A DNA stretch of 33,680 bases from a virus (IMGVR_UViG_2526164670_000016:1-33680); one strand, 5' to 3'; positions 17,353-30,745 are shown, counted from the stretch's first letter. Notes: a model not told the origin generated them from the sequence alone. Numbers and translations are program-made.

Positions 17353-18375
17353 TTACGCGCCCCCTCCCGGTGCAACTTCGCCGGTCGCAAGGGTGATTTT
17401 GTCGAATGCCGCATACAGCTCGTCATGCTCGACGCCGTAACCTTCCATGCGCAGATAGTTGTTCTCGAAGCGCTTGCGGTCGTCGTTCCATTCCGCTTTA
17501 CGCTTACGTGTACCCTGCTGGGTGTAGATATGCAGGTTGTCCAGCGTGGTGACGATAAGGCGACCCTCCGGCATAAACGGCGGGGTGTACACGGTACGGC
17601 CAGCAACCTGGCGGCCAATAAGCTGCGCGGCAACTTTCTCAGTCGGGCGATCAATCTTATTCATCATTGTGGTGGCGTCGTTGCCGATAAGGTCAGCGGA
17701 AGCCAGCACGACCAGGCGTGGGTCATTGCGGAATGGCTCATAAATGCAGGTGTGCACAAGGTCCGTGACTGCCGCGTCCAGCCCAATAAAGTCAGCCCCT
17801 GACGCACCGATAGTGACGGCATCAGAAATAATCTGCTCAGATGAACGGTCTTTAACGATTTTGTGCCAGCCGATGTTGACGTCTTCGCCGTTCGGGTTAG
17901 CTTCCGGGTCGGTGTCTTCTGCAACACTCGTACCGTTGAACGCCACGCGTAACATGTCCAGCGCGAAAGATTCGTTGCTGAATGCCTGAATACGCTGGAA
18001 AAACTCCTCTTCGCTGCCCGCGTTCGCCCAGACAACCAGCAGGGAGTAAGGCAGATACGAACCAGAATCCGTTTCTACCAGCTTGTACTCGTTACCGGAC
18101 ACACCCAGGGCGCGAGAGAAACGACCGTCTTTTTTACGTCCGGTATAAATACCCGGTTTACCGGTGCTGACCACCTGGCCGGTGATCTGGTCCACATCCA
18201 GCACGTTAGGCAGCAGACGCAGGAACTCAGAACTTTGCAGCAGGGCATTGCGCAGCTGGGTTTCTTTCGGATTGGTCAGCGAGAAGTAGCGCGACGTGTC
18301 CACCTGGCCGTTAGCTTTCGCCAGGCCTGCGGCAAACTTACGCAGCATCTGCTCTGCTTTTGGGGTTAATTGCAT
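17353..18375 (-). CDS. N: Major capsid protein (P2 gpN family), 340 aa
   Basis: Size and position between scaffold and small terminase; motifs comparable to P2 gpN (for example the DPRLVVL region) from memory, but diverged. Confidence 0.8.
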   Translation of the reverse strand: MQLTPKAEQMLRKFAAGLAKANGQVDTSRYFSLTNPKETQLRNALLQSSEFLRLLPNVLDVDQITGQVVSTGKPGIYTGRKKDGRFSRALGVSGNEYKLVETDSGSYLPYSLLVVWANAGSEEEFFQRIQAFSNESFALDMLRVAFNGTSVAEDTDPEANPNGEDVNIGWHKIVKDRSSEQIISDAVTIGASGADFIGLDAAVTDLVHTCIYEPFRNDPRLVVLASADLIGNDATTMMNKIDRPTEKVAAQLIGRQVAGRTVYTPPFMPEGRLIVTTLDNLHIYTQQGTRKRKAEWNDDRKRFENNYLRMEGYGVEHDELYAAFDKITLATGEVAPGGGA

Positions 18376-18403
18376 AATCTTTTATTCCTGAAAAGAATGG
18401 CTG

Positions 18404-19465
18404 TTAAACAAACTCAAACGGTTCTTTGCTTCCGCCTGGCGCACTGCCAGGGCGGCGCGTATTGCCGTTTTCCATCGCTGACAACTTGGTCAGGACGGTA
18501 GTCAGCTGCGTGGTAAGGTTGTCCATCTGGTTGCCAGCTGGCTGGCGACGGGCGGAAAAGTCACGGCGACGGCTGGCGCGTGGGCGCTTCGCTGGCGTCA
18601 CATTGAATGACTTCATGACTTTTGCCAAGTTGGCTTTGGCGGCGCTGAATTCTTCTGCTTTGACTTCGTCTTCCGGGTTTTCGATAACGTCCTGCGCCAG
18701 CTCGGCCACCTCGTCGGCAGCATCAGCGATCTGGGCGGCAACATCTGCCACCACATCAGCGGCCTGTTCCGGGGTATCAACCGTGTCAGCATCACCCGTT
18801 GCGGCGTCTTTACCGCTTTTAAGCAGATCCAGCATTTGCTGAATGAGCGCTTTTAATTCTTCCATTTTTTCTCCGTCGCCCTCGGTGGGCTTATCAGTGT
18901 TTGGCTCTGGCGTTGGCGTAAAATCTTTACTGGCCGAAAATAAACGCGACCAGAAAGAATCTTTTTTATCCGGTTTACTTGTCTGTAATTTTCCTAAGCT
19001 GAATGTTTCCAGACTCCCGCGCTCGGCGTCTTTTTCTTCACCGGCTAAAACAAATTTAATTTTTTCCGTTCCCAGACTTGCCGGAATATCCGTCACAGCC
19101 AGCCCGAAAAGATATTCACGACCACTGCCTGCAAAATCAGTGACAAATTCGGCTGACGTAAATAACTTTTGCCCCATACGGTTGGCATCAATTAAAAATT
19201 GATTCGGGATTAACTGGGCATATAACTTCGTGACGTCACCTTCCGTTTCCACTTTCAGCGCGTCCACTTCACCCAGGTTGCAGGTAAATTCACGCTCGCC
19301 GATATCGTATTGCGGGTGGTGCGGCCAAATCATGGCGGTGTAGGTTTTGCGGGTGTAGGTTTCTGCCGCATCAATCAACCATTGCGGTTCAATGGTGCGA
19401 CCGTCCACAGCCTGTCCAGATGTGGCAATACATAGCCAATCCGTGCGGTAATGAGATTGCGGCAT
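18404..19465 (-). CDS. O: Capsid scaffolding protein (P2 gpO family), 353 aa
   Basis: First gene of the minus-strand head operon, divergent from P; acidic Ala/Asp/Glu-rich central region typical of scaffold proteins. Confidence 0.75.
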   Translation of the reverse strand: MPQSHYRTDWLCIATSGQAVDGRTIEPQWLIDAAETYTRKTYTAMIWPHHPQYDIGEREFTCNLGEVDALKVETEGDVTKLYAQLIPNQFLIDANRMGQKLFTSAEFVTDFAGSGREYLFGLAVTDIPASLGTEKIKFVLAGEEKDAERGSLETFSLGKLQTSKPDKKDSFWSRLFSASKDFTPTPEPNTDKPTEGDGEKMEELKALIQQMLDLLKSGKDAATGDADTVDTPEQAADVVADVAAQIADAADEVAELAQDVIENPEDEVKAEEFSAAKANLAKVMKSFNVTPAKRPRASRRRDFSARRQPAGNQMDNLTTQLTTVLTKLSAMENGNTRRPGSAPGGSKEPFEFV

Positions 19466-19642
19466 AGCTGACCTTTAATAATGAATTTAAATAACAATAA
19501 TTCGTTTGTGGTGGTCAGTATTGCGAATTGATTAAAACAGCGCGACCGCTTTATTTCTTATGTATTCGGTTATAACTGGATAGCCACTTTATACCGATAT
19601 TTAATCATCAATTTTGCAAAATAATCCCGCCATAATAGCCGC
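19466..19642. promoter_or_regulatory. Divergent intergenic region between the O-like and P-like genes; expected site of Ogr-dependent late promoters
   Basis: 177-bp AT-rich spacer between divergently transcribed late operons; I did not find a perfect TGT-N12-ACA dyad by eye. Confidence 0.3.
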
Positions 19643-21454
19643 ATGGCTAAATATTCCGATGAATTAAAAGAAGCGGCCCGCACGCTTTATATAAAAAGCT
19701 GGACGCCGAAAGATATTGCGCAGGAACTGAATATTCCACCGCGTACAATTTACCACTGGGCTGACGTCGGGAAGTGGGCATCACTGCAGCCTGTTGAATC
19801 GGTGGAAAATGTCATCGCCCGCCGTATCGACCAGCTCTCCCGCCGCGAGAAAAAAACAGCGCTGGAACTGGAAGAACTGCGCGATCTAATTGCTCACCAT
19901 GTGAAACTCATGGCGCAGCGCAACAAGCACGCCGAAAAGCTGGCAGAAATTCAGGCCCAGAAAACGGCTTATGATGGTGAAGGGTACTGCCTCAGCAGCG
20001 CAGGCGGGGAACCAGGGGAAAGAAAGCGCCGGTATAAGAAAAACGACGTTTCCGGTATTACAGCGGAAATGCTCGACACCTGGGCGCAGGAACATCTCTT
20101 CGAGTACCAGCTGCACTGCCGCGAACATAAAGGCGAAGACTGGCGCTTCATTCTGAAAAGCCGCCAGGTGGGTATGACCTATTATTTCGCCTGGGAAGCA
20201 TTCGAAGACGCCGTCATTACCGGTGACAACCAGGTCTTTTTCTCTGCAAGCCGATCCCAGTCGGAAATCTTCCGCGAATACATCGTCCAGATCGCCCAGA
20301 ACCATTTCGGCGTGACGCTGACGGGTAAAAATATCCGCCTCAGTAACGGCGCAATACTGCGCTTTTTGTCCACGAACGCCAGCACCGCGCAGGGCTTTAA
20401 CGGCCACCTGTATGGCGATGAGGTTTTCTGGATCCCGAAATTCACGCGCCTGCATGAAGTTGCCAGCGCAATGGCAACGCATAACAAATACCGCACGACC
20501 TACTTTTCGACGCCCAGCGCGAAAACGCACCAGGCTTACCCGGTCTGGACTGGCGAAGCCTGGCGCGGGGACGACCCGAAACGCAAAGGTGTGAAGTTCC
20601 CGAACGAAAGCGAAATGTGCCAGGGCATTCTTTGCCCGGACCAGATCTGGCGCTACATCATCACGATGGAAGACGCTATCGAAGGCGGCCTCGGGGCGCT
20701 TGTCGATATTGAACGGCTGCGCAACAAATACAGCCCGACCGCGTTCGCCATGCTCTACATGTGCCAGTTTGTTGACAGTAAGGACGCGGTTTTCAAGTTC
20801 TCCGCGCTTGTCGGCTGTGAAGTGGACCGGGCCACATGGGGCGACTTTGATCTGACCGCTACGCGGCCTTTCGGCAATCGCGAAGTATGGGCAGGTTTTG
20901 ACCCGTCGCGCTCCGGCGACAACTCAACATTTGTGTTAATCGCGCCCCCTATAGAGGACGGCGAGCGCTTCCGCGTGCTGGCCGTCTGGCAATGGCAGGG
21001 TTTTAACTTCAGCTGGCAGGCCGACCAGATAAAGCAGCTTATGCGCCGCTTTAACATCACTTACATCGGGATCGATACAACCGGCATAGGTAAAGGCGTT
21101 TATGACCTTGTCAGCAAATTTGCGCCACGCGAAGCCACACCAATTCTTTACAGCGTCGAAAGCAAAAACCGCCTGGTGATGAAGATGATCGACGTTGTCG
21201 AGCGTAAGCGCATCGAATGGGCAAAAGACGCCGTAGACGAAACGAACAAGGAGCGCGTCGAAATTCCGGCCAGCTTTATGGCTATCCGGCGCACGACAAC
21301 CAACAGCGGCAATGCGCTGACGTTTGTTGCCGAACGTTCAGACGCGACCGGCCATGCAGATGTTTTCTTCGCTATCTCGCACGCCGTAATTAACGAACCT
21401 ATCGATCACGAATATGACCGCCCATCGGGCTGGTACTTTGGGAAAGCAGCATGA
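19643..21454 (+). CDS. P: Terminase ATPase (large) subunit (P2 gpP family), 603 aa
   Basis: Length and P2-like position, divergent from O and followed by the portal gene with an ATGA overlap. Confidence 0.85.
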   Translation: MAKYSDELKEAARTLYIKSWTPKDIAQELNIPPRTIYHWADVGKWASLQPVESVENVIARRIDQLSRREKKTALELEELRDLIAHHVKLMAQRNKHAEKLAEIQAQKTAYDGEGYCLSSAGGEPGERKRRYKKNDVSGITAEMLDTWAQEHLFEYQLHCREHKGEDWRFILKSRQVGMTYYFAWEAFEDAVITGDNQVFFSASRSQSEIFREYIVQIAQNHFGVTLTGKNIRLSNGAILRFLSTNASTAQGFNGHLYGDEVFWIPKFTRLHEVASAMATHNKYRTTYFSTPSAKTHQAYPVWTGEAWRGDDPKRKGVKFPNESEMCQGILCPDQIWRYIITMEDAIEGGLGALVDIERLRNKYSPTAFAMLYMCQFVDSKDAVFKFSALVGCEVDRATWGDFDLTATRPFGNREVWAGFDPSRSGDNSTFVLIAPPIEDGERFRVLAVWQWQGFNFSWQADQIKQLMRRFNITYIGIDTTGIGKGVYDLVSKFAPREATPILYSVESKNRLVMKMIDVVERKRIEWAKDAVDETNKERVEIPASFMAIRRTTTNSGNALTFVAERSDATGHADVFFAISHAVINEPIDHEYDRPSGWYFGKAA

Positions 21455-22512
21455 CAAAGAAACAGCGTAAAAATAAAAAATTCGGGTCCATGACCGGCAG
21501 CCGGGTTGAAACCTTCACGCCAGGGCGCGGAAGCGTGATCACATTTGGCGAACCAGAACCCATCCTGACGACCGGCACGGATTATCACAATATCTGGTAT
21601 GACAATGAGTATGACCACTGGCGACTTCCGATTGATCGCCTGGCGCTGGCCCAGTTGCCGAACCTTAACGGCCAGCATGGTGGTGTACTGTATGCGCGGC
21701 GCAATATGGTGGCCGGTGGCTACATCGGCGGCGGCCTGACGCCTGACCAGGTCGAACAGGCTGTCTTTGATTACCTGCTGTTTGGTGACGTTGCTATCCT
21801 GAAAATTCGTAACGTATTCGGGGAAGTGATCGACCTGCTGCCGCTGCCGTCGCTGTATCTTCGCTGCCGAAAAGACGGGTCGTTTGCTGTTTTGCAGGAA
21901 GGGCCAGCACTTATCTATGACCCGGAAGACATCGTCTTTTTTAAAATGTACGACCCGCGCCAGCAGGTGTATGGCCTGCCTGACTATATTGGCGGCATCC
22001 ATTCGGTGTTACTCAACAGTGAGGCAACCATCTTCCGACGCCGTTACTACAACAACGGGGCGCACATGGGCTTTATTCTCTATACCAGCGATCCGAATCT
22101 TACTCTGGAAATGGAAAACGAAATCAAAGAGAAGATCGCCCAGTCCAAAGGGCTGGGTAACTTCCGAAATATGTTTATCAACATCCCGAAGGGCGACCCG
22201 GAAGGGGTTAAAATCCTGCCGGTGGGCGAAGTCAGCGCAAAGGACGAATTTGCCAACATCAAAGGGATCACCGCACAGGATATCTTTACCGCTCACCGTT
22301 TCCCCGCTGGCCTGGCGGGTATCATCCCGACCAACGGCGCGGTAATGGGCAACCCTGAAACCGCCCGCACAACCTATCGCAAGGATGAAGTTATCCCCTT
22401 GCAGCGCAAGCTAATGAACGGCGTCAACAATGACCCGGAGATCCCCGCACACTTGCACCTGGTTTTTGACGTGGATATCCCGGCAATTACCACCGAAAAG
22501 GGCGAAAAATGA
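21451..22512 (+). CDS. Q: Portal protein (P2 gpQ family), 353 aa
   Basis: Size and position after the large terminase gene, with translational coupling. Confidence 0.85.
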   Translation: MTKKQRKNKKFGSMTGSRVETFTPGRGSVITFGEPEPILTTGTDYHNIWYDNEYDHWRLPIDRLALAQLPNLNGQHGGVLYARRNMVAGGYIGGGLTPDQVEQAVFDYLLFGDVAILKIRNVFGEVIDLLPLPSLYLRCRKDGSFAVLQEGPALIYDPEDIVFFKMYDPRQQVYGLPDYIGGIHSVLLNSEATIFRRRYYNNGAHMGFILYTSDPNLTLEMENEIKEKIAQSKGLGNFRNMFINIPKGDPEGVKILPVGEVSAKDEFANIKGITAQDIFTAHRFPAGLAGIIPTNGAVMGNPETARTTYRKDEVIPLQRKLMNGVNNDPEIPAHLHLVFDVDIPAITTEKGEK

Positions 22513-22568
22513 ACGCAGTTAAGTTAAAATCATCCCCACTGTTAGCAATGGCGTGCGGGATGGTGAAC

Positions 22569-22835
22569 ATGCGAGTTTTTAAAATTAAATGTCCTGAATG
22601 CGGCTCACCGGCCATCATTCGTAAATCTGACTGGAAAGACAAAAAACTGGCTGATTTATACTGCGCCTGCACGGAAGTTGAATGCGGCCACACCTTTGTT
22701 TTTAACGCCCAGTTTTCACATACCCTCAGCCCCAGCGGGCTGACCGGCAACAAGCTGGTTAAATTCCTGATTGACCGACTCAAGCCGGAAGAACGGCAAT
22801 TCGCGCTGGACCTGCTCAACGGCCAGACGGCATAA
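22569..22835 (+). CDS. ogr: Ogr/Delta-family zinc-finger late-gene transcriptional activator, 88 aa
   Basis: MRVFKIKCPECGSPAIIRK...YCACTEVECGH gives a C-x2-C-x22-C-x4-C motif as in P2 Ogr; ATG at 22569 with GGGATGG upstream (track ORF starts earlier at 22509). Confidence 0.75.
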   Translation: MRVFKIKCPECGSPAIIRKSDWKDKKLADLYCACTEVECGHTFVFNAQFSHTLSPSGLTGNKLVKFLIDRLKPEERQFALDLLNGQTA

Positions 22836-22837
22836 AC

Positions 22838-22869
22838 GAAGCCCGCATAAAGCGGGCTTCTTTTCATTT
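22838..22869 (+). terminator. Rho-independent terminator after ogr
   Basis: GAAGCCCGC-ATAAA-GCGGGCTTC hairpin followed by TTTTCATTT, starting 3 nt after the ogr stop. Confidence 0.65.
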
Positions 22870-22943
22870 AGAGTGATGTAATGTTATCCGCTATTTTGTT
22901 ACATTCATGGTGGATTTTGCCCTAATATCTGAGGAAAGAAGAT

Positions 22944-24299
22944 ATGCGAATGACCGCTCCAACCAAATCCTTTACTGATGGATTTTGTGAGAATGATGAT
23001 ATTTTTGAAAGAAAAAAACTCCACGATATCATTATGCGGGTTGCCACTAACGCCCCTGATAAAAGTTTAGTTTTAGCATTAGATGATAAATGGGGTAATG
23101 GGAAAACTTCATTTGTAAAAATGATGGAGTCAGAGATAAACAAAAACCACTCCGACGATTTCGAAGTCATCTATTTTGATGCTTTTAAAAGTGATTATCA
23201 GTCTGATCCATTTGTGGCATTAACTTCTAGCATATATTCTCTTATAAACAAAAGTGATGGAAAGTTAAAAACGCTATGTAAGGAACTGTTAGACATTGGA
23301 AAAAAACTTGGTGCCTCATTTGCTATAAATGGTGCGAAGTTTGCAATCAGTACACTTTCAGGTGGGTTACTATCTGGAACCGTTTTTGATAAGGCTACAG
23401 ACACAATAACTGACTCTATCTCTTCGCCCGTAGAGGAATATATAGAAAGCAAAATAAAAAATAGTGAAAGTGAAATCGCGATTATTGAGCGGTTTGGTGA
23501 TTTATTAACTAAAATTTGTGAACAAAGTGGTAAGAAAATATTTTTTATAATCGATGAGCTTGATCGTGCCCGCCCTGACTTTTCATTAGACTTATTAGAG
23601 AAAATAAAACATATATTTTCGGTTAAAGGTGTTATTTTCCTGTTGGTTGTTAATCGTGAACAATTTGAAAAAAGCATTGAATGTCGATATGGCAATATTA
23701 ACGCAAGGCTGTACCTTAATAAATTTGTCCATTACTGGTTTAGTCTTCCGAAGAGAAGCTATCTTTCTGAGGATTGTTTAAATAGATTTAAGCACTCCAC
23801 TATAAAACAATACCTTCTCACTATAGATAATGGTAATAATTTCTTCGTTCGCAATGGCTCCCTTGTAAATACGCTGGCGTATTTGTTAGAAGTCAATGGT
23901 TGTTCACTACGAGAGGCTGAGCGTTGTTACTCTGTGTTTGCAGTTATTGCAAATCCGAATAAAATAAACGAGTACAGTACCGATGCTTATAAAGTTGCAA
24001 TGGGACTAGTTGCATTTCTGAAAGTTCATAACCCTCAAATTCTATCTGATATCATATATAAGCGATATGAATTAAAAGAAATTCTACCAAAGCTATCAAT
24101 CAAAAGAGAACATTTAGAATATATCTCGGAGGTCTACTTACTTGATCACTTACTACAGTACCACTACAAATCAGATGAAGAATTAAAAAACCCTGAGAAC
24201 CAAAATCAATTTTCTGACTTACAAGGTTATTTTGGTCGAAGAGCCCCTGTTTTAGAAATGATGTTTGAAACAGTTGAAGGGTTTAATATTAGTTATTAA
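22944..24299 (+). CDS. KAP-family P-loop NTPase (PifA-like), 451 aa; candidate phage-exclusion protein
   Basis: Walker A WGNGKTS (aa 50-56) and Walker B IFFIIDELDRARPD (about aa 200) in the KAP style, with a hydrophobic insert between them (ASFAINGAKFAISTLSGGLLSGTVF); low-GC gene with its own RBS (GAGGAAAG) in the cargo island. Confidence 0.6.
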   Translation: MRMTAPTKSFTDGFCENDDIFERKKLHDIIMRVATNAPDKSLVLALDDKWGNGKTSFVKMMESEINKNHSDDFEVIYFDAFKSDYQSDPFVALTSSIYSLINKSDGKLKTLCKELLDIGKKLGASFAINGAKFAISTLSGGLLSGTVFDKATDTITDSISSPVEEYIESKIKNSESEIAIIERFGDLLTKICEQSGKKIFFIIDELDRARPDFSLDLLEKIKHIFSVKGVIFLLVVNREQFEKSIECRYGNINARLYLNKFVHYWFSLPKRSYLSEDCLNRFKHSTIKQYLLTIDNGNNFFVRNGSLVNTLAYLLEVNGCSLREAERCYSVFAVIANPNKINEYSTDAYKVAMGLVAFLKVHNPQILSDIIYKRYELKEILPKLSIKREHLEYISEVYLLDHLLQYHYKSDEELKNPENQNQFSDLQGYFGRRAPVLEMMFETVEGFNISY

Positions 24300-24346
24300 A
24301 CCGTAAAAACATTATTTGCAGGCTCTTTGCCGCCCGCACCCGCAGA

Positions 24347-24389
24347 ATCCTGCAGGCCGACGCAAACAGTTGCGACGTCCTGCAGGATT
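24347..24389. repeat. GC-rich inverted repeat (AATCCTGCAGG ... CCTGCAGGATT with a partly palindromic 22-nt centre)
   Basis: Perfect 11-bp arms at 24347-24357 and 24379-24389 between the convergent KAP gene and the 24394-25104 ORF. Confidence 0.5.
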
Positions 24390-24393
24390 GCAT

Positions 24394-25050
24394 TCATTCT
24401 TTTGGGGGGCGACCTTCTGCACCCGCCAGCATTTTTTGATACTCCCCGACCGGATCAAACCGCAGACGCGTGGCATCTATGCCGTGGTTTTCCCGCAGAC
24501 GTTCCCATAATTTATTCACCATCCGTGACTCGTCGGGTAATTGACGCGTTATCAACTGGCCGCCAGCACTGGCCCGATAAACTTTTCCGCCAATCTCCAG
24601 ACGGCTCCCCATTAACAGCGAAACGGCCTGAATCTCTGAAATCTCAACCGAACACAACACCGCATCTGCCAGCAGACTGGCAACCGCAGGGGCAAGCGCT
24701 GCCTGCCTAGCTTTTTCAGCCTCCGATCTGGCCTCGGTTTTTTCAACGGCAGAACGCCAGGCGACATCTAATTCGCTTCCTGGCTCATAAGGTGATCCGC
24801 TTTGCCGCCTTTTGAATGGTGTTTCACGTAGTCGCCGCATCAATTTGCGCCGCGTTGGCTGGTCCATATCTTCAAAATCGACGATTTCATCGTCTGAATC
24901 TTCTGTCGTTAACTCTCCGTCAGCTGGCACAGCCATTTCTGACATTGAAAAATCGGTGATTTTTTCGTCTTCCGTAGAGTTATTGACAGAACTCGAACTC
25001 AAACACTCTGTACATTTTTGTGCAGTATAAAAAGTCTTCATGTTGATCAT
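24394..25050 (-). CDS. Hypothetical protein, acidic N-terminal region; start uncertain (ATG at 25050 or 25041; track ORF starts at a GTG at 25104)
   Basis: Single open frame across a GC-rich segment that contrasts with the AT-rich flanking cargo genes; no strong RBS; no family recognised. Confidence 0.3.
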   Translation of the reverse strand: MINMKTFYTAQKCTECLSSSSVNNSTEDEKITDFSMSEMAVPADGELTTEDSDDEIVDFEDMDQPTRRKLMRRLRETPFKRRQSGSPYEPGSELDVAWRSAVEKTEARSEAEKARQAALAPAVASLLADAVLCSVEISEIQAVSLLMGSRLEIGGKVYRASAGGQLITRQLPDESRMVNKLWERLRENHGIDATRLRFDPVGEYQKMLAGAEGRPPKE

Positions 25051-25118
25051 CAGTGCATAGACTTTTATGATTAGTTCAAAATGGCATTGTGCAGTATGCT
25101 CCACAACGGGTGAGACTT

Positions 25119-25682
25119 ATGAACATTCAAACCGAGACAATTTTTAGCATTGGGCATGGTGCTCGCAGGCTAGAAGAATTTATAGCTTTGTTGAAAAAAT
25201 ATCATATCAGATATGTTATAGACGTTCGTTCAAAACCCAGATCTAGGTTTCACCCACATTTTAATCGTGAAGCTTTGACTCTTCATTTGAAAGAAGCAGG
25301 CATTCGATACGTATTCATGGGAGAACAATTAGGTGGTATTCCTAAAGATGATCAATGTTACGATGAAGACGGACGGGTTGATTACGAAAAAATAAAAAAC
25401 AAAGCTTTTTTCCATGAGGGAATTGAGAGAATAAAAACGGCTCATTCAAAAAATTTAAAAATTGCATGTATGTGTAGCGAGCTATCCCCTTGCGATTGCC
25501 ATAGAAGTAAATTAATTGGTGATTACTTGCAATCACTCGGGATAGAAATGCAGCATATAGATAAGAAAGGAGATATTAGTTCACAAAATGACGTAATGAA
25601 GGAAGTGCTCGGCTCAAACGGTGAATTGGACCTATTTTCGGACAACACCAAAAAATTAAAATCAAGAAAATCGTATCGTTGA
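25119..25682 (+). CDS. DUF488-like protein, 187 aa
   Basis: N-terminal IFSIGHGARRLEEFIALLKK...VIDVRSKPRSRFHPHFNRE and later CMCSE..PCDCHR match what I recall as the DUF488 signature; ATG at 25119 with GGTGAG upstream (track ORF starts at a GTG at 25089); low GC. Confidence 0.55.
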   Translation: MNIQTETIFSIGHGARRLEEFIALLKKYHIRYVIDVRSKPRSRFHPHFNREALTLHLKEAGIRYVFMGEQLGGIPKDDQCYDEDGRVDYEKIKNKAFFHEGIERIKTAHSKNLKIACMCSELSPCDCHRSKLIGDYLQSLGIEMQHIDKKGDISSQNDVMKEVLGSNGELDLFSDNTKKLKSRKSYR

Positions 25683-25697
25683 ATAAAGGGTATTGAG

Positions 25698-26309
25698 ATG
25701 AATACTGATGTAATAATTCTTTCCAGAACAAAAATGTCTGGAGATAAAATTTGCGTAGGTGGATTAGATCTTAATAGTGGGAAGATGTTAAGATTATTGG
25801 ATAATAGAGCAAGTGCTTTGACTTCAGCTTATCCATATAGTATTGGCGAAACATACTCAATAGAGTTTGCTGAAAGGTATCAAGTAGCAGCCCCACATGT
25901 TGAAGATGTAGCTGTTTATGACTACAGCTTAGCGAAAAGTTTTAATAAAGTAGATCTAGATACTATCGTCCATAAACACTCTGGTACATATAACAATCTT
26001 AGTGAACTCTTCTCTGGAAAACTTCACTGGCAAAACTCCAAGGGATATGCTTTGGAGTCAGACCCTCCGGAATTTAGCGTTCAAATAGCAAAAATTAATA
26101 AAATCCTAGTTAGAAATGGAACTGACTTTCAAGAGTTCGGCTCACTCAATCCGCGCAAAGTTAAATATGTTGGCGAACTTGATATAAATAGACTCCCTAG
26201 TAGAATAAATCCTGGCACACCTATTAGATTTTCTTTAGCTCGACCTTGGGATAAGGATAATAATGGTATTAAAGTGTGTTATTTACAACTATCTGGAGTT
26301 TACATTTAA
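25698..26309 (+). CDS. Hypothetical protein, 203 aa, co-operonic partner of the DUF488-like gene
   Basis: ATG 15 bp after the DUF488 stop with AAAGGG..GAG upstream; AT-rich; no family recognised. Confidence 0.5.
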   Translation: MNTDVIILSRTKMSGDKICVGGLDLNSGKMLRLLDNRASALTSAYPYSIGETYSIEFAERYQVAAPHVEDVAVYDYSLAKSFNKVDLDTIVHKHSGTYNNLSELFSGKLHWQNSKGYALESDPPEFSVQIAKINKILVRNGTDFQEFGSLNPRKVKYVGELDINRLPSRINPGTPIRFSLARPWDKDNNGIKVCYLQLSGVYI

Positions 26310-26428
26310 AAATTATTTAATATTAGAATAACGCGCTCAGCATTAACTTATTTTATAAAATGCAGAGCGCCTTATGAAATATAACTATTCAAACCTTTCG
26401 TTGAATCAATATCATTTATATTCGAAAA

Positions 26429-28927
26429 TTACTCTATCGCCTTTCTCCAGCGACTGAGCAACTCATCAACTCTATGCCTTGCCAGCGTTTTACGCCAGTT
26501 CATATCCGCACCGGTCACAATCAACTCCCCTGTAATTTGGTTGGCACGGTAAGTAGTATCAAGCGCAGTCACTTCTCTCCCTTGTACCAGCTTTAGCACT
26601 TGCACAGGTGTGATTTGGATCTTTCTTAACTTCGCCCAATCCAGTACCTGAGCAACTAGGGCTGTAACGTTCTTATCTACTACGCTTTCTTCCTGGCGGA
26701 GCGCATACGCGGCTTTTAAATAGCTTTCCGCTCTAGCTCGGTTATATTCGGTGCACTCACCCACAGTGATACTGTACGCAAGTGACTCAAACTCATCTGC
26801 TGCTGAAACACGCTGCGTTTGTTTGTGGATTTTCAGGCCTTCAGCAATCTCTTTTTTCTGTTCCCACCTTAATTTGCCGATTTCAAATTGCTCTGGAGAT
26901 TCATCCCTAGTCGGCAAAGTCAGATCTGGCCGATAAACAACCTGGCAATCTGTTTGTTTTTTGTACTCAGTACAGTTATTGACACGAGTCCTAGAGGGCG
27001 CAGACGCGCCCTTAAGGTCAACAGCAAGGTCAACGGCCTTGCCTGAATCGTTAATAATCTCCGGTTTCTTACGCACAATCCGATAAGAATGTAGGCGGGT
27101 TTCAACTGGCGGCATGAAGATGTGAGGCATCACCAGTCCTTTAATTAAGGTCTGGTATTCACCGTGATCGTTTGGCTGGTCTTTTTGTTGATACCAGATG
27201 CGCAGTGGCAGATCACAACGGGCAACCAACGCCCCACCCTGCAATTGGGTGTATTGCTGCCAGTCGCCAGCATCCGCTGCACGGTGCAGCTCGGCAAACA
27301 ACGGGTTAATCTGGTCTGCCTTTTCCTGATTGCGGAATCGACGTAGCTCGCGCCAGACTGAAACAGGCGCACCACCAAGGAACTGGAATTGACGAATACC
27401 CCAGCATGATGCCCAGGCCGTCGCATGTTTTGAGGTTTCTTTTAATGGTCTGCCGTTCTCGTCATCTGTTTCACCGTCGAGCGCGTAACCATCAATATTC
27501 TTGCTGATATACTTCACCACATAACCGGTGGCGCTTCCGATTTCATGATCGATAGGCTTCATTTCGAAACGTGGACGAATGCCATGCTTACCCTGCAATT
27601 CGTCCTCATCCTCGCGGGTGGCGTAGTCCTTCATCACTTCCAACAATTCAGCTGAATGTTCTGGTAAGGAAAACAGAAGACCATGCCAGTGTGGCGTTCC
27701 GTCGTGGTGAGATTCAGCCACGCGAAGCCCAAACACCTGAATATCGCGGCGGGCCAACTCAGCGCGGATCTGTTGCCAGACTCGATTAAGATAACGTTGC
27801 GTGGTTCTTGGACTGGCCCCGTTCCATTTGCCATTACGATGACCGAAGACGGTATAGGCATGATATTTGGAAGGTGCTGTCATGGTGAAAAACTGCCCTG
27901 CATAGCCACTTTCGGTAGCGACTTTCTCGAAGCCACCGATGCGAGTCATAAGCTCAACGCGGCGCAAAGCTGGGTTAGATATGCTCTTATCTATTTGCTC
28001 AATGAGTGAAATGCGTTCTTTGGTTTCCTGATCTTCCAGCTCAAGCCTGGCCATAATCGCCCGGCTGCGTTTCCGCCTAGTGTCCCACTCTTCAACATGA
28101 TGCTTACTGCAATATGGCGCAGCGCCTCGCTTCACATCACCAAAAGCGATGTGCAGATGTTCACGCCAGCGCGTGCCGTACTTTTTAAGATTTCGGTGCC
28201 AGTAGCGATCATCCAGCATCTTGCTGATACCGGTCGTCGCCTCATCAATAAACAATTTACCCCGGCAATACTTTTCCCAGTTCGGTGGCGTTAGAAAGAA
28301 AAGACGCGCAAGTTGTGCCGCCTCGGTGTAAAGGTATTCGGCATACCGGCGATCACTTTGCGTCTCTACCGTTTCGTGTACCTCGCTCAGCACCGACCGC
28401 ATATAGATCGCAATATCCTGCGCTAATAGTTCAACATCTTCCGGCGTGTAGTCCGGCAGCCTGTTGAATCTCTCAACTAAACCGTTAAGGGTATCAAATA
28501 CATGGTAAAGCGGGTTTAACTTTTTGAATGCTGTTTCAGCTTGTGATTTTGCGTCTTCGGTCATCGCAATTGCGTATTGAGCATTCACCATATTGATGGG
28601 CGGCAGCTCTCTGCGGATGATGTCTCTTACTGCCTGACGGGCAATATGTCGGCCCTTCATCGTGTGAATACTGTCAATGCGAGAAGCCAAGCGCAGGCGT
28701 ATAAAGCGAGGAAGTCTCGAAAGGGTAAGTTTCACCCACGACAAAAACTCTTGTTCTTGACCCAATTCGAATAGATCAACAACAGGAGTCTTATCAACAT
28801 AAATAGCTGCATTAGGCTTTTGCCACTCGTAATCGTAATTGATATCAGCAGCAGAATTAGACATACCCCTGCCGCCAACTAACTGGCGGCGATTGTTACT
28901 CGGCCGAACAAACGCGGAGTCTGTCAC
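26429..28927 (-). CDS. A: Replication initiation endonuclease (P2 gpA-like rolling-circle initiator), 832 aa from the GTG at 28927
   Basis: HUH motif (DGTPHWHGLLF) and catalytic tyrosine motif (GYVVKYISKNIDGYALDG) as I recall from P2 gpA; GTGA overlap with the Dam stop, alternative ATG at 28864. Confidence 0.85.
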   Translation of the reverse strand: MTDSAFVRPSNNRRQLVGGRGMSNSAADINYDYEWQKPNAAIYVDKTPVVDLFELGQEQEFLSWVKLTLSRLPRFIRLRLASRIDSIHTMKGRHIARQAVRDIIRRELPPINMVNAQYAIAMTEDAKSQAETAFKKLNPLYHVFDTLNGLVERFNRLPDYTPEDVELLAQDIAIYMRSVLSEVHETVETQSDRRYAEYLYTEAAQLARLFFLTPPNWEKYCRGKLFIDEATTGISKMLDDRYWHRNLKKYGTRWREHLHIAFGDVKRGAAPYCSKHHVEEWDTRRKRSRAIMARLELEDQETKERISLIEQIDKSISNPALRRVELMTRIGGFEKVATESGYAGQFFTMTAPSKYHAYTVFGHRNGKWNGASPRTTQRYLNRVWQQIRAELARRDIQVFGLRVAESHHDGTPHWHGLLFSLPEHSAELLEVMKDYATREDEDELQGKHGIRPRFEMKPIDHEIGSATGYVVKYISKNIDGYALDGETDDENGRPLKETSKHATAWASCWGIRQFQFLGGAPVSVWRELRRFRNQEKADQINPLFAELHRAADAGDWQQYTQLQGGALVARCDLPLRIWYQQKDQPNDHGEYQTLIKGLVMPHIFMPPVETRLHSYRIVRKKPEIINDSGKAVDLAVDLKGASAPSRTRVNNCTEYKKQTDCQVVYRPDLTLPTRDESPEQFEIGKLRWEQKKEIAEGLKIHKQTQRVSAADEFESLAYSITVGECTEYNRARAESYLKAAYALRQEESVVDKNVTALVAQVLDWAKLRKIQITPVQVLKLVQGREVTALDTTYRANQITGELIVTGADMNWRKTLARHRVDELLSRWRKAIE

Positions 28928-29910
28928 CGCTCAGACTCCACGCCACATGTCGCAGCCGTTGCCAGCATTTCGTTATAGGTCGCGTTACCCATTACAGGGC
29001 CACAATCAGGGCAACCACCACCACCGGCACGACCACAGCCGCTACACAATTTGAGGACGCCGATCACTTCACTGGCGGCCCCTCGGGTAATGGCGTTCGC
29101 GCTAACAGAACGGTTAACGCTGATTTCCTGGAAGTTGAAACAGCGATAAATCTCGCGGGTGACTGGGGTGTCGCTATTGGACAGGATCACCGGCGAACCA
29201 GTAAGGCGGTTAATATCCAGCAGGACGGCAGCTAACTGGCGATGTTCTTTAATGCCAAACGGGGCTGTGTGATATTGGGTGAAATTAGCTGTTTCGCTTG
29301 TTGGCAGGTATGGCGGATCGCAGTAGATAACCGCGTCACTACCAATCATGATTTTTAACGTGCTCTGGAAATCGCAGCACACGAAAATGGCTTTCGTGTC
29401 GTTAGCTTTTTCAGAGAATAAACGGATCTGTTCTTCCGGGAAGTAAGGCGGGGTTTTGTGACGCCCAAAGGGAACGTTATATCCACCCTGTTGGTTGTAG
29501 CGTACTACGCCGTTATATCCGTGACGGTTCAGGTAAAGAAATTGTGCTGCACGAAGAATCTTGCCCGCGTCCGGCCCATCTTCAAACACACTGCGCAATG
29601 ACAGTAGGTCACGTGCGCGGGCGTTGAAATCATCGCGGATCCATTTATAGCCGTCTTTATCGCCGTACACTTTAAACAGTGGGCGAGCAGCGTCGATCAC
29701 CGCATCAGGCCAGCGGGTTATCTGGCGATACAGGTTAATTAAATCTGGGTTGATATCACCCAGGATATAACGGCGATATTCAGTATTGAGGAAAACAGAA
29801 GCACCGCCGACAAACGGTTCCACCAGGCAATCGGCTTTCGGCAGAATCGGCAGCAAATCAGGCATAACGCGGCCTTTACCACCGGGCCATTTAACGAGAG
29901 ATCGAATCAT
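28924..29910 (-). CDS. DNA adenine methyltransferase, Dam-like, with a Cys-rich C-terminal extension, 328 aa
   Basis: WPGGKGRV...EPFVGGASVF (SAM-binding) and IYCDPPY (catalytic DPPY) closely resemble E. coli Dam from memory; extra tail CSGCGRAGGGGCPDCGP; GGAG RBS before the ATG at 29910. Confidence 0.85.
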   Translation of the reverse strand: MIRSLVKWPGGKGRVMPDLLPILPKADCLVEPFVGGASVFLNTEYRRYILGDINPDLINLYRQITRWPDAVIDAARPLFKVYGDKDGYKWIRDDFNARARDLLSLRSVFEDGPDAGKILRAAQFLYLNRHGYNGVVRYNQQGGYNVPFGRHKTPPYFPEEQIRLFSEKANDTKAIFVCCDFQSTLKIMIGSDAVIYCDPPYLPTSETANFTQYHTAPFGIKEHRQLAAVLLDINRLTGSPVILSNSDTPVTREIYRCFNFQEISVNRSVSANAITRGAASEVIGVLKLCSGCGRAGGGGCPDCGPVMGNATYNEMLATAATCGVESER

Positions 29911-29980
29911 TTTTACTTTCTCCAGGGTGCAAGAAGCCCGACGCGTTAGCGCCTGTTTCTTTTTTGTGGGTAGTTAGTTG

Positions 29981-30376
29981 TTAATTTACTGCGTTATCTG
30001 GCGCGGGTGGTTTGTCGCGTATCGCCTGAATTTCGGCGCGTGGTGCGGCGTAGTCCTCAAATTCCCACGGCATTGATGCTGCAAATTCGGAAAGGCGCTT
30101 AATGCCCATCAAAAGGCACGTTTGCTCCTTTTCGGTTAGATTTTCGTAAGTACAACCCAGCTGTTTGGCGGTCAGCTTCGGCATTCCGACTATGTATCTG
30201 GACGCATCGTTTGCCAGGATGAAAATCACCTTTTTGCAGGCATCATCCAGGCGGTTAAAACGGGTTGCAGTGTCATTCACGCGTGAGGCGTTCAAACTGG
30301 CTTGCAGCCGCGCCCGTTGCTCTAAGAACTGGCGGCGACCTGGCTGTTGTTCTGTCTTATCCATCAACATAACCAC
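29981..30376 (-). CDS. Hypothetical early-operon protein, up to 131 aa (sits where P2 has gene B, but not recognised as B)
   Basis: ORF in the early operon between the 97-aa ORF and the Dam gene; several candidate starts; no family recognised. Confidence 0.4.
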   Translation of the reverse strand: MVMLMDKTEQQPGRRQFLEQRARLQASLNASRVNDTATRFNRLDDACKKVIFILANDASRYIVGMPKLTAKQLGCTYENLTEKEQTCLLMGIKRLSEFAASMPWEFEDYAAPRAEIQAIRDKPPAPDNAVN

Positions 30377-30385
30377 CTCCCCGAA

Positions 30386-30679
30386 CTACGCAAAGATGCC
30401 CATTAAGCGGGAAAACCAGCGGCGCTTATTACGCGGGCGCGACATGAACGGTACACGGTAGTTTTTAACAAATTGAACATCTAACGCTTTCGGCTGGAAG
30501 AACCTCCCGTCCGGGGTTTCAATCCAGCCACGTTGATGCTGACGGTGGGTGATCTGCTGGCCGTGGGTGAGCAGGCTGGCGAGTGAAGGGCACTGTGTTA
30601 AGTCCATGATGATCTCCGTCATATTGAAAAGATGCCGGGATATAACCCCACGCCCGGCACGTGTTTCCTGTGATAACAT
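30386..30679 (-). CDS. Hypothetical early-operon protein, 72-97 aa depending on start
   Basis: ORF with an internal ATG (MDLTQ...) preceded by GGAG; basic C-terminus; no family recognised. Confidence 0.3.
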   Translation of the reverse strand: MLSQETRAGRGVISRHLFNMTEIIMDLTQCPSLASLLTHGQQITHRQHQRGWIETPDGRFFQPKALDVQFVKNYRVPFMSRPRNKRRWFSRLMGIFA

Positions 30680-30745
30680 CGCTATGCCTGTGAAACTTTG
30701 GAGAGTGAATCAGGCATAACAATCACCAACACAGAAGGAGTTGTA

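What the first reader, a model, noticed from the sequence alone, without database searches (positions are those of the whole stretch)
22870..26428. Low-GC cargo island at the P2 defence-hotspot position (between portal/ogr and replication gene A)
The 3.5 kb between the ogr terminator and the 3' end of gene A holds four genes that are not phage core functions, with AT-rich composition and their own ribosome-binding sites. In P2 this position holds old and tin, and I recall it being described as a hotspot for diverse anti-phage systems. The cos site should also lie in or near this interval but I could not locate it.
Basis: partly seen in the sequence, partly recalled or inferred. Interest (0 to 1): 0.7.

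Follow-up and report, generated by a model that had tools for sequence, protein, structure and literature searches.

The report
Defence-gene island in P2-like prophage
This is the known variable "defence hotspot" of a P2-like E. coli prophage, holding two untested candidate anti-phage cassettes separated by a leftover piece of an older replication gene that starts exactly at the phage's replication nick site.

Summary
The AT-rich island is real, but it holds three cargo genes, not four. The window is an E. coli P2-like prophage (SW5/Irrigatiovirus type) next to yegQ–cyaR.

Between the ogr terminator and gene A lie:
- a single-gene KAP P-loop NTPase (22944-24299; PADLOC candidate PDC-S20);
- a GC-normal fragment (24394-24994, minus strand) that is the last 199 codons of a former SW5-type gene A;
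- a two-gene operon, DUF488 (25119-25682) plus DuOB (25698-26309).

In relatives the same interval holds PARIS, a type III R-M system, an ABC-3C system, RmrTA or a methylase. This is the published gpQ–gpA hotspot, and Rousset 2022 already lists this exact cassette (Table S5B, no. 162, no sign it was tested).

DUF488 models as a cysteine-phosphatase-like fold. DuOB models as two OB folds and is elsewhere fused to helicases. The pair recurs in P2 hotspots and in defence islands. Defence function is inferred, not shown.

The gene-A fragment begins at the position equivalent to P2's annotated ori nick. An independent fragment in Klebsiella begins 3 nt from it. This suggests that gpA nicking helps stack cassettes (only two events). 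The cos site was not found.

The parts
22509..22835 (+). Ogr/Delta-type zinc-finger late activator. It overlaps the portal stop codon and forms the left conserved flank of the hotspot.
   Evidence: Pfam Ogr_Delta E=2.6e-17. PHROG 603, transcriptional regulator. 99% aa identity to SW5.
22838..22860 (+). Rho-independent terminator-like hairpin ending the terminase/portal/ogr operon. Homology to relatives without the KAP gene ends here (22836-22863).
   Evidence: Terminator scan: 9-bp stem followed by a T run. blastn boundaries.
22864..24316 (.). Cargo slot 1. This is the variable segment, replaced by different genes in otherwise 92-97% identical relatives.
   Evidence: blastn against SW5 and against an E. 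coli prophage. Contents of relatives' slots.
22944..24299 (+). KAP-family P-loop NTPase, 451 aa. Walker A is G51-N-G-K54-T55 and Walker B is FFIIDE at 200-205. No predicted transmembrane segment. It is a single-gene candidate defence protein.
   Evidence: Pfam KAP_NTPase E=2.6e-40. PADLOC PDC-S20 E=6.7e-70, with weaker PifA and QatA matches. PHROG 8614, full-length match. GC3 0.285 and hydropathy. Same slot in Salmonella, Serratia and Klebsiella prophages. dN/dS 0.12.
24317..24393 (-). Conserved non-coding block immediately 3' of the old gene-A stop codon, forming the right boundary of slot 1. It has a 20-bp hairpin (24346-24389) whose outer stem differs but still pairs in relatives, then GCGGGC..GCC(T/C)GC with a T run. 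It is probably the early-operon terminator. Whether it contains cos is not shown.
   Evidence: Inverted repeat I3. Terminator scan. Comparison of window, L001, L002 and L033.
24394..24994 (-). Remnant of a former SW5-type replication gene A: the last 199 codons plus the stop. It lacks the catalytic Phage_GPA domain. The ORF is extended to 25050/25104 by junction sequence.
   Evidence: 94% aa identity to SW5 gpA residues 680-878. PHROG 91 positions 633-778 of 852. The intact arrangement KAP + 878-aa A is seen in contig L033.
24979..24994 (-). Right half of the old ori (GAGTTC TGTCAATAAC). The upstream hairpin half is missing. The recombination junction lies between 24995 and 24994, which corresponds to the P2 nick position.
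   Evidence: P2 record annotation rep_origin 29892, 'nick site at ori'.
24995..29053 (.). Swapped-in segment from another P2-like lineage: the DUF488 promoter region, DUF488, DuOB and a complete gene A' (plus the 3' end of dam relative to L033). Relative to SW5 the right boundary is 28935/28936, at the dam stop / A' start.
   Evidence: blastn: L033 is colinear with 16944-24997 and 29054-30735. SW5 homology resumes at 28936. The Enterobacter prophage L003 matches 25023-28222 at 74%.
25005..25118 (+). Upstream region of the DUF488 operon, conserved in the Enterobacter and Klebsiella cassettes. It carries TGT(A/G)CA repeats and a promoter-like TTGATC-17-TATGAT at 25043-25071.
   Evidence: Promoter scan. 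Alignment by eye of window, L013, L003 and L025.
25119..25682 (+). DUF488 protein, 187 aa. The predicted fold resembles cysteine phosphatases. Invariant residues are D35, R37, S42, C119, E121, C127, H128, R129 and H146.
25698..26309 (+). DuOB (dual OB-fold) protein, 203 aa. Invariant residues are C19, R32, P66-H67-x-E69-D70, S127, R177, S179 and S199.
26333..26370 (.). Inverted repeat (GCGCTCAGCA ... TGCAGAGCGC) between the convergent DuOB and A' genes. It is a probable bidirectional terminator, and a similar repeat is present in L003.
   Evidence: Read from the sequence. Not reported by the terminator scan.
26429..28927 (-). Resident, full-length replication gene A' (832 aa). It is 34% identical to SW5 gpA and 66% identical to the Enterobacter L003 gpA.
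   Evidence: Pfam Phage_GPA E=1.8e-101..
26975..27011 (-). Resident ori inside A': hairpin GGGCGC-GTCT-GCGCCC (27011-26996), then CTCTAG|GACTCG (predicted nick between 26991 and 26990) and TGTCAATAAC (26984-26975).
   Evidence: The architecture is shared by 73 of 81 distinct P2-like ori sequences. P2 nick annotation.

Best explanation
The interval is the gpQ-gpA accessory ('defence') hotspot of an E. coli P2-like prophage of the SW5/Irrigatiovirus type, integrated beside yegQ-cyaR.

It carries two independently acquired, AT-rich, self-contained cassettes. These are most likely expressed from the prophage and protect the lysogen against other phages.

Cassette 1 is a single soluble KAP-family P-loop NTPase. 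It is inferred to be an NTP-driven sensor/effector of the PifA/QatA/Tmn type.

Cassette 2 is a two-gene operon. DuOB, with two OB folds, is inferred to bind single-stranded DNA or DNA/RNA ends of an invader. DUF488 has a cysteine-phosphatase-like fold with an invariant Cys/His/Arg cluster. It is inferred to carry out a phosphate-directed reaction on nucleic-acid termini or nucleotides.

Between the cassettes lies a scar, not a gene. It is the 3' end of the prophage's former gene A, starting at the ori nick position. The ancestor (Q-ogr-KAP-A, as in contig L033) had the part of gene A upstream of the nick replaced by a foreign block [A' + DuOB + DUF488]. The left junction sits at the site where gpA nicks and becomes covalently attached. 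This suggests that aberrant joining during rolling-circle initiation or termination created it.

Shown: the gene identities, the mosaic structure, the junction position, the variability of the locus, the recurrence of both cassettes at this locus, and purifying selection. Inferred: the defence function, all biochemical activities, and gpA involvement in the junction.
For: Hotspot:
- Relatives with the same flanks carry PARIS, type III R-M, ABC-3C, RmrTA, a methylase or unknown genes in this interval.
- The published definition of the locus matches.

KAP:
- PDC-S20 E=6.7e-70 and KAP_NTPase E=2.6e-40.
- Homologues of 42-95% identity sit as a single gene in the same slot in Salmonella, Serratia and Klebsiella P2-like prophages.
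- dN/dS is 0.12.

DUF488-DuOB:
- The adjacent pair is conserved from 99% down to about 30% identity.
- Folds.
- DuOB is fused to a RecD/PIF1-like helicase + TBP-TOTE and to HSP70-like ATPases.
- dN/dS is 0.04-0.16.

Catalogue: Rousset 2022 Table S5B no. 162 lists these very proteins, with 11 E. coli occurrences.

Remnant and mosaic.

Ori and nick:
- The conserved hairpin + GGAxTxxTGTCAATAAC element is present in 73 of 81 distinct sequences, with 25 different stems (shuffles average 3.0).
- P2's annotated nick lies at TCG|GAGTCC.
- The window remnant starts at GAGTTC.
- An independent A'-type remnant in Klebsiella starts 3 nt upstream of the equivalent point and also lacks the hairpin.
Against: - No experiment shows anti-phage activity for any of the three genes. 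PDC-S20 and PDC-M45 are only candidates, and DuOB has no PADLOC model at all.
- The KAP protein has no recognisable effector domain and no membrane segment.
- The nick-junction idea rests on two events. None of 120 further IMG/VR P2-like stretches had a remnant.
- The ori core is also the best-conserved DNA patch between divergent A genes, so it could attract recombination without any nicking.
- Short duplications at both junctions (GAGTTC GAGTTC; TAG TAG) blur the exact breakpoints.
- No strong sigma-70 promoter was found for the KAP gene.
Confidence: 0.62

Rival explanations
1. DUF488-DuOB is not a defence system but an accessory of the phage's own replication or DNA handling. It would travel with gene A' because it works with it, for example as an SSB-like protein plus an end-processing enzyme for rolling-circle intermediates or cos ends.
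For: In the window and in Enterobacter L003 the pair lies directly 3' of the A'-type gene. In Klebsiella it is still attached to an A' 3' fragment. The nearest folds to DuOB are RecO, RPA, SSB and PriB.
Against: The pair also occurs without any gene A or prophage in Pseudomonas, Acinetobacter, Sphingomonas and Chloroflexota. It is transcribed convergently to A', from its own conserved upstream region. Its GC3 of 0.24-0.30 is foreign to the phage. Most P2-like phages lack it, and no DuOB was found in 50,697 phage records. In C. freundii it is retained in a decayed prophage that has no functional A.
Confidence: 0.1
2. One or both cassettes are selfish addiction modules (toxin-antitoxin-like) or counter-defence genes that benefit the prophage, not immunity genes for the host.
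For: Two small adjacent genes with 15-nt spacing are typical of TA pairs. TA systems such as RmrTA and HicAB occupy the same hotspot in relatives. The cassette persists in a degraded prophage.
Against: Neither protein matches a known toxin or antitoxin family. Both are about 190-200 aa globular proteins under strong purifying selection. The three-gene form sits among restriction-like and abortive-infection genes. TA systems in such hotspots often act in defence anyway, so this rival overlaps the main reading.
Confidence: 0.1
3. The coincidence of the gene-A remnant boundaries with the ori nick reflects ordinary short-homology or illegitimate recombination at the only well-conserved DNA patch of gene A (or chance). 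It would not reflect gpA-catalysed nicking or joining.
For: TGTCAATAAC and its flanks are nearly invariant across A genes that are only 34-40% identical in protein, which makes them natural crossover points. Both junctions show 3-6-nt duplications typical of microhomology joining. No further cases were found in 120 IMG/VR stretches.
Against: The partner sequences at both junctions are not gene-A sequences, so homology with the conserved patch was not what aligned them. Both remnants keep precisely the nick-distal side and lose the hairpin side, as expected if a 5' end created at the nick was joined to a foreign 3' end. The window junction matches the annotated P2 nick to the nucleotide.
Confidence: 0.35
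4. The 218-236-aa remnant ORF is a functional gene rather than a scar. For example, it could be a C-terminal gpA domain fragment that interferes with the replication of related superinfecting phages.
For: The reading frame is intact with an ATG (25050). It is conserved with the same junction in E. coli (11 occurrences in Rousset's table) and in C. freundii, including an in-frame 7-aa indel. Rousset et al. counted it as the first gene of system 162.
Against: dN/dS is 0.37-0.49, no lower than for the same region of intact A genes (0.46-0.61), so selection cannot be told apart from drift. In C. freundii its C-terminus is cut away by another insertion. No promoter was detected for it.
Confidence: 0.12

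Closest known systems
P2 gpQ-gpA (tin/old, 'TO') anti-phage hotspot (Rousset et al. 2022, PMC9122126; Vassallo et al. 2022, PMC9519451; 2026 preprint 10.64898/2026.02.27.708500)
   Same: The position is the same, between portal and replication gene A. The cargo is AT-rich, self-contained and swappable. Known defence systems sit at the same place in relatives. This exact cassette is listed as system no. 162 'DUF488', and the arrangement 'KAP_NTPase + Ogr_Delta + DUF488' is recorded.
   Different: In this lineage an Ogr-like gene sits between the portal and the cargo. The island is split by a gene-A remnant, and no P2-type cos sequence is detectable next to it. DUF488 appears in none of the paper's other held files, so there is no sign the cargo was tested; the list of cloned systems (Table S2A) was not read directly.
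KAP-family NTPase defence proteins: PADLOC candidate PDC-S20; validated relatives PifA (F plasmid), QatA of QatABCD, Tmn, and the single-gene KAP-domain system 'Reve' from P4 satellites (2026 preprint)
   Same: KAP P-loop domain with intact Walker motifs. Single-gene organisation like PDC-S20, Tmn and Reve. Carried on a mobile-element hotspot.
   Different: There are only weak matches to PifA (56.6 bits) and QatA (45.9 bits against a cut-off of 600), and no QatBCD neighbours. There are no transmembrane helices, unlike Tmn. PDC-S20 itself has no published validation that I could find.
PADLOC candidate PDC-M45, and the DUF488 + DUF488-N3a + DuOB operons seen in defence islands. From my own memory (the paper could not be opened): the 'RapZ-C-DUF488-DUF4326 clade' and predicted DNA-end-processing conflict systems of Burroughs & Aravind 2023
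   Same: The first DUF488 gene of all these operons, including the window's, matches PDC-M45B (E=1e-46 to 1e-54). The gene order DUF488 then DuOB and the tight spacing are the same.
   Different: The window, Enterobacter, Klebsiella and Pseudomonas versions lack the second DUF488 (N3a / M45C-like) gene. DuOB matches no PADLOC model, so PADLOC would not call a system here. What PDC-M45A is could not be determined.
[quoted passage not shown] 2022, as cited in PMC12458937)
   Same: A DuOB domain is fused to a RecD/PIF1-like helicase and a TBP-TOTE domain in a distant homologue (P0353). This places DuOB among nucleic-acid-sensing modules of predicted conflict systems.
   Different: The window has no TPR, TBP or helicase component. 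The partner here is a DUF488 enzyme.
Mobilisation of genes between rolling-circle replicons through their nick sites (DSO-qacC-SSO model for staphylococcal RC plasmids, PMC5037232; from my own knowledge also IS91/ISCR and Helitron one-ended capture)
   Same: A junction lies exactly at the initiator's nick site. Cargo lies immediately downstream of the nick. Truncated copies are left beside a functional copy.
   Different: P2 is a 30-kb double-stranded DNA phage whose ori lies inside the initiator gene. Only two events were seen, and no biochemical evidence exists for gpA-mediated joining to foreign ends.

Membership tests
P2-like gpQ-gpA defence hotspot | Located between the portal gene Q and the replication gene A | tested here: met
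   Portal 21451-22512 and gene A' 26429-28927 flank the island.
P2-like gpQ-gpA defence hotspot | Content varies between otherwise closely related phages | tested here: met
   Flanks are 92-97% identical in SW5, E. coli FDAARGOS_1059 and L033, yet the cargo differs.
P2-like gpQ-gpA defence hotspot | Recognised defence systems occupy the locus in relatives | tested here: met
   PARIS, type III R-M, ABC-3C/PDC-M68 and RmrTA.
P2-like gpQ-gpA defence hotspot | Adjacent to the cos site | tested here: inconclusive
   No P2/186-type cos 19-mer was found. The only conserved non-coding blocks look like terminators.
KAP family P-loop NTPase (PF07693) | Profile match above the curated cut-off, with Walker A and B motifs | tested here: met
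   139 bits against a cut-off of 20. GNGKT at 51-55 and FFIIDE at 200-205.
PADLOC PDC-S20 (candidate single-gene system) | Match to the PDC-S20 model, as a stand-alone gene | tested here: met
   E=6.7e-70 over residues 18-416. A single gene between two terminators. A single gene in the same slot in three other genera.
PADLOC PDC-S20 (candidate single-gene system) | Demonstrated anti-phage activity | not testable with these tools
   Needs plaque assays.
QatABCD | QatA equivalog score, with QatB, QatC and QatD neighbours | tested here: not met
   NCBIfam QatA scores 45.9 bits against a cut-off of 600. No Qat partners are present in the island.
PifA | Full-length similarity to the roughly 720-aa PifA | tested here: not met
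   Only the NTPase domain matches (56.6 bits; residues 33-271 against model positions 32-256 of 720).
PADLOC PDC-M45 (candidate multi-gene system) | All components (M45A, M45B, M45C) present | tested here: not met
   Only M45B is matched strongly (1.4e-54). There is no second DUF488 gene. DuOB matches no PADLOC model even at E<=10.
DUF488 (PF04343) | Profile match above the cut-off, with the conserved D-x-R...S and C-x-E...C-H-R motifs | tested here: met
   82.8 bits against a cut-off of 22.2. The invariant columns are listed.
Cysteine phosphatase (PTP/DSP) fold, rhodanese-phosphatase superfamily | Shared fold, with a catalytic Cys at the strand end followed by a phosphate-binding loop ending in Arg (C-X5-R) | tested here: inconclusive
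DuOB (PF22557) | Profile match above the cut-off, and two OB-fold barrels | tested here: met
Functional P2 gene A (Phage_GPA replication endonuclease), for the ORF 24394-25104 | Presence of the catalytic Phage_GPA domain | tested here: not met
   No Pfam match. The ORF aligns only to residues 680-878 of SW5 gpA, downstream of the domain.
P2-type ori (nick site inside gene A) | GC hairpin followed by C-T-N-G-G-A-S-T-Y-S-TGTCAATAAC | tested here: met
   The resident ori at 26975-27011 is complete. The remnant at 24979-24994 has only the part 3' of the nick.

The most novel reading that the evidence does not exclude
Cassette stacking in the P2 hotspot is driven by the phage's own rolling-circle initiator. 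gpA, covalently attached to the 5' end created at the ori nick, is occasionally joined to a foreign 3' end. This fuses a whole [new gene A + its downstream cargo] block in front of [old ori half - old A 3' end - old cargo]. That would explain why the hotspot lies immediately downstream of gene A and why gene-A pseudogenes appear in these loci. In addition, DUF488-DuOB would be a new kind of immunity that recognises single-stranded DNA or DNA ends (DuOB) and chemically alters their phosphate termini (DUF488).
Probability: 0.25. Interest if true: 0.75.

Novelty: new member of a known kind. Interest (0 to 1): 0.5.

Why it matters
The hotspot itself is textbook by now, and this very cassette is already in a published catalogue. 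So the island is not a discovery as an island. Its value is twofold.

First, it singles out two compact, strongly conserved candidates that recur at this locus across genera and have never been validated. These are a soluble single-gene KAP NTPase and the DUF488-DuOB pair. The DUF488-DuOB chemistry (a phosphatase-like enzyme plus a dual OB-fold binder) resembles no validated defence system.

Second, the 'fourth gene' is a scar whose end coincides with the replication nick site. If that holds in large datasets, it gives a concrete and testable mechanism for how P2-like phages swap and stack immunity genes. Recent surveys describe this swapping as fast, but the two I checked (Rousset 2022; the 2026 preprint) propose no such mechanism.

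Tried and rejected
- cos: P2 and 186 cohesive-end 19-mers were searched with up to 3 and then up to 7 mismatches. Only chance-level hits appeared, none in the island. The conserved block 24317-24393 shares 12 of 19 bases with P2 cos, but it is better read as tandem terminator hairpins. cos remains unplaced. It may lie elsewhere, as in HP1-type phages (my own knowledge, not tested).
- Rfam on the whole window: only CyaR, in the host flank.
- Repeats: no att-like direct repeats flank either cassette.
- Ori hairpin: RNAalifold gave no consensus. A fixed-register pair count was ambiguous because loop lengths differ (65.5% paired against 62.5% when slid by one). I replaced these with a per-sequence hairpin test against shuffles.
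- dN/dS as a pseudogene test for the remnant: inconclusive, because intact gpA C-termini evolve just as fast.
- Further remnants: 120 IMG/VR stretches carrying the ori core had none. L055 lacked the hairpin but proved to be an intact, divergent A gene.
- Literature: Burroughs & Aravind 2023 could not be opened by DOI, PMC id or PubMed id. Statements about it are from memory. Two word-start searches ('duob', 'dual ob') returned only noise.
- Sequence searches of solved structures found nothing for any of the three proteins.
- No homologue of the DUF488-DuOB DNA was found in 72,556 plasmids. No DuOB was found in 50,697 phage records. No near-identical cargo was found in 5,426 complete E. coli genomes.
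- A LexA-box reading of the DUF488 upstream palindrome was rejected. The spacing is CTG-N12-CAG, not CTG-N10-CAG (my own reading of the sequence).

Full report
**What the window is.** The left end of the window is E. coli chromosome. yegQ/trhP matches at 99.8% down to about position 1623, and the CyaR sRNA lies at 1445-1530. The rest is a P2-like prophage ending with an integrase at 32437-33381. Its structural and packaging genes are 95-97% identical in DNA to Salmonella phages SW5/SW3/SI7 (Peduoviridae, Irrigatiovirus) and to prophages at the same site in about 19 complete E. coli genomes.

**The observation.** Gene order around the finding:
- terminase 19643-21454;
- portal 21451-22512;
- an Ogr/Delta zinc-finger gene 22509-22835;
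- a terminator hairpin 22838-22860;
- then the island;
- then gene A on the minus strand, 26429-28927.

The low GC content is real. It is 0.34-0.37 in 500-nt windows against 0.51 overall. GC3 is 0.24-0.30 for three genes against 0.50-0.65 for their neighbours. The middle of the island (24500-25000) has normal GC, and the ORF there is not cargo.

**The 'fourth gene' is a gene-A remnant.** The minus-strand ORF 24394-25104 aligns at 94% identity to residues 680-878 of SW5 gpA. It matches the C-terminal part of PHROG 91, 'nicking at origin of replication'. It has no Phage_GPA domain. The resident gene A' is full-length but only 34% identical to SW5 gpA.

Contig L033, found through the KAP protein, shows the undisturbed ancestor: Q-ogr-KAP-A (878 aa)-dam. 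It is colinear with window 16944-24997 at 94%, and again from 29054. So the segment 24995-29053 was swapped in. That segment holds the DUF488 upstream region, DUF488, DuOB and A'. Its closest relative among the loci I fetched is an Enterobacter hormaechei P2-like prophage (74% over 25023-28222). The island is therefore two slots with separate histories.

**The locus is a hotspot.** A scan of species genomes with the portal protein returned eight loci. I mapped Ogr and gpA in each and annotated what lies between them:

| Source | Cargo between Ogr and gpA |
|---|---|
| SW5, Enterobacter RIT418, Hafnia, one MAG | a 230-aa methylase |
| E. coli | a 930-aa AT-rich protein with no family match |
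| Rahnella | DUF2326 + ABC-3C CTD12 (PDC-M68B) |
| a MAG | PARIS AriA + AriB |
| Shewanella | type III R-M |
| Enterobacter | RmrT/RmrA + DUF488-DuOB |

This is the gpA-gpQ hotspot of Rousset et al. 2022 and Vassallo et al. 2022. [quoted passage not shown] It also lists a system no. 162, 'DUF488', with 11 occurrences. Its three proteins are the remnant ORF, this DUF488 (one visible residue difference in the quoted passage) and a DuOB whose listed sequence matches the window's by eye. 'DUF488' occurs in none of the paper's other held files, so I found no sign that it was tested.

**Cassette 1: the KAP NTPase.** The 451-aa protein matches KAP_NTPase (E=2.6e-40) and PADLOC PDC-S20 (E=6.7e-70). 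It matches PifA and QatA only weakly and is far below the QatA equivalog cut-off. It has Walker A and B motifs and no transmembrane segment. It matches PHROG 8614 (unknown function) end to end.

Homologues of 42-95% identity are widespread in Enterobacterales. In Salmonella-type, Serratia and Klebsiella contigs they sit alone in the same slot of P2-like prophages. dN/dS against the 95% homologue is 0.12. A single-gene KAP-domain system, 'Reve', from P4 satellites was recently reported to protect against phages. I could not compare sequences.

**Cassette 2: DUF488-DuOB.**
- *Gene structure.* DUF488 most likely starts at 25119, as in its 186-187-aa homologues. DuOB follows 15 nt later.
- *Two-gene form.* The pair is conserved in Enterobacter and Klebsiella P2 hotspots, in C. 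freundii, and in Pseudomonas oryzihabitans and P. aeruginosa islets.
- *PADLOC.* The first DUF488 of every operon matches PDC-M45B. DuOB matches nothing in PADLOC.
- *DuOB fold and family.* The model (pLDDT 95.8) is two OB barrels. Its nearest solved folds are RecO, telomere end-binding protein, RPA and SSB. Invariant residues include P66-H67-x-E69-D70, R32 and R177. A profile search finds 1,068 clusters at 50% identity. These include fusions to a RecD/PIF1-like helicase with a TBP-TOTE domain and to HSP70-like ATPases. TOTE systems are predicted conflict systems.
- *Prior prediction, from memory only.* Burroughs & Aravind 2023 place DUF488 in a RapZ-C-DUF488-DUF4326 clade of the rhodanese-phosphatase superfamily and predict DNA-end processing in conflict systems. 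I could not open the paper.
- *Selection.* dN/dS is 0.04-0.05 for DUF488 and 0.12-0.16 for DuOB.
- *Where it is absent.* No DuOB is present in 50,697 deposited phage genomes. The cassette is not on PLSDB plasmids.

**The junction and the ori.** A search for the short repeat shared by the remnant and A' led to a conserved element in every gene A examined. It is a GC hairpin followed by C-T-N-GGA-S-T-Y-S-TGTCAATAAC. In P2 it reads GCGGC-ATC-GCCGC-GCCTCG|GAGTCCTGTCAATAAC, and the GenBank record marks 29892 as the 'nick site at ori'. Among 81 distinct upstream regions from P2-like contigs, 73 have a perfect hairpin of at least 5 bp ending 3-5 nt before GGA. These use 25 different stem sequences. 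Shuffled controls average 3.0.

The window remnant's homology to SW5 and L033 begins at GAGTTCTGTCAATAAC (24994 downward). That is exactly 3' of the position equivalent to the P2 nick, and the hairpin half is gone.

In Klebsiella prophages the DUF488-DuOB cassette is followed by a 120-aa ORF that is 63% identical to residues 684-784 of A'. Its DNA homology begins at TAGGACTCGTGTCAATAAC, 3 nt upstream of the equivalent point. It too lacks the hairpin, and an intact third type of A gene lies further on. In both cases the topology is [complete A + cargo]-junction-[ori right half - A 3' end - older cargo - portal].

gpA is a rolling-circle initiator that stays attached to the 5' end at the nick (established knowledge for P2). 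A natural inference is aberrant joining of that end to a foreign 3' end, analogous to the nick-site gene mobilisation proposed for rolling-circle plasmids.

Caveats:
- Only two independent events were found.
- None was found in 120 more IMG/VR stretches.
- Short duplications at both junctions blur the breakpoints.
- The ori core is also the best-conserved DNA in gene A.
- The 2026 survey of P2/P4 hotspots notes Phage_GPA pseudogenes and 'remnants of recombination' but does not mention the nick.

**Decay with retention.** In C. freundii CP056850 the same junction, DUF488, DuOB and 155 nt of the A' 3' end survive beside yegQ. Most of the prophage is gone there, and slot 1 holds an Mrr_cat-nSTAND3 protein. 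This fits the reported retention of defence genes in defective P2 elements.

**cos.** Neither the P2 nor the 186 cohesive-end sequence is present. The only non-coding DNA conserved with relatives is the ogr terminator and a 77-nt block after the old A stop. That block consists of two hairpins, one with covarying stems, followed by a T run. I read these as terminators. cos remains unlocated.

**Verdict.** The observation needs correcting: three cargo genes in two slots, plus a core-gene scar. The island is a new instance of a known kind and is already catalogued. Its cargo is unvalidated but shows the hallmarks of defence genes. The nick-site junction is the one observation I did not find described in the papers I could search, and it is cheap to test at scale.

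Noticed in passing
window 1-1623 (CyaR at 1445-1530): The prophage is integrated immediately downstream of yegQ/trhP and the CyaR (RyeE) sRNA gene. Homology to prophage-free E. coli ends near 1623. The same site is occupied by related prophages in other E. coli and by a decayed one in C. freundii.
   Followed up: partly
window 22509-22835: The Ogr/Delta late activator is placed directly after the portal gene, with overlapping stop and start, instead of at the P2 position next to attP. The placement is conserved in SW5, E. coli, Enterobacter, Hafnia and Rahnella relatives. In Ferrimonas and Shewanella it lies on the other strand, next to gene A.
   Followed up: partly
window 25005-25118; L003 7300-7420; L025 8880-9000: The region upstream of DUF488 is conserved between cassettes whose flanks are unrelated. 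It contains repeated TGT(A/G)CA motifs about 11 nt apart, upstream of a promoter-like TTGATC-17-TATGAT. This may be an operator for an unknown regulator. It is not a LexA box (CTG-N12-CAG).
   Followed up: no
L013 (C. freundii CP056850.1, 3180962-3193573): A degraded P2-like prophage beside yegQ keeps only a fragment of a baseplate gene, an Mrr_cat-nSTAND3 protein (757 aa), the gene-A remnant, DUF488-DuOB and 155 nt of the A' 3' end, followed directly by clpA. The defence-type genes outlived the phage.
   Followed up: partly
L002 7595-10387 (E. coli FDAARGOS_1059 and about 18 other complete genomes): Slot 1 holds a single 930-aa, GC 0.32 ORF with no Pfam or PADLOC match at all. It is an unexplored hotspot occupant.
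   Followed up: no
L020 3932-4255 and 5820-5999: A MAG relative carries a partial second copy of the ogr gene (residues 44-103, 87% identical) inside the hotspot. It lies between a three-gene block (one gene's N-terminus looked Hcp-like by eye; not scanned) and a PARIS system. This is another core-gene scar, on the opposite flank of the hotspot.
   Followed up: no
L001 6359-7051; L017 11411-12103; L018 11432-12106; L021 14570-15259: A roughly 230-aa protein annotated 'DNA methylase' in SW5 is the commonest occupant of slot 1 in this lineage. It has phage-like GC but no Pfam match at E<=1e-5.
   Followed up: no
P2-like gene A in 137 loci (e.g. window 26975-27011; L039 29868-29909): The ori inside gene A is a hairpin whose stem sequence differs between lineages (25 variants) while pairing is kept. 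It is followed by a nearly invariant nick region, so a coding sequence is also under DNA-structure constraint. Eight sequences lack the hairpin, including an intact divergent A gene in L055.
   Followed up: yes
window 28936-29053: The right boundary of the swapped segment differs by reference. SW5 homology resumes at 28936 (dam stop / A' start), whereas L033 homology resumes at 29054, inside dam. The last 40 or so codons of dam therefore have a third origin.
   Followed up: no
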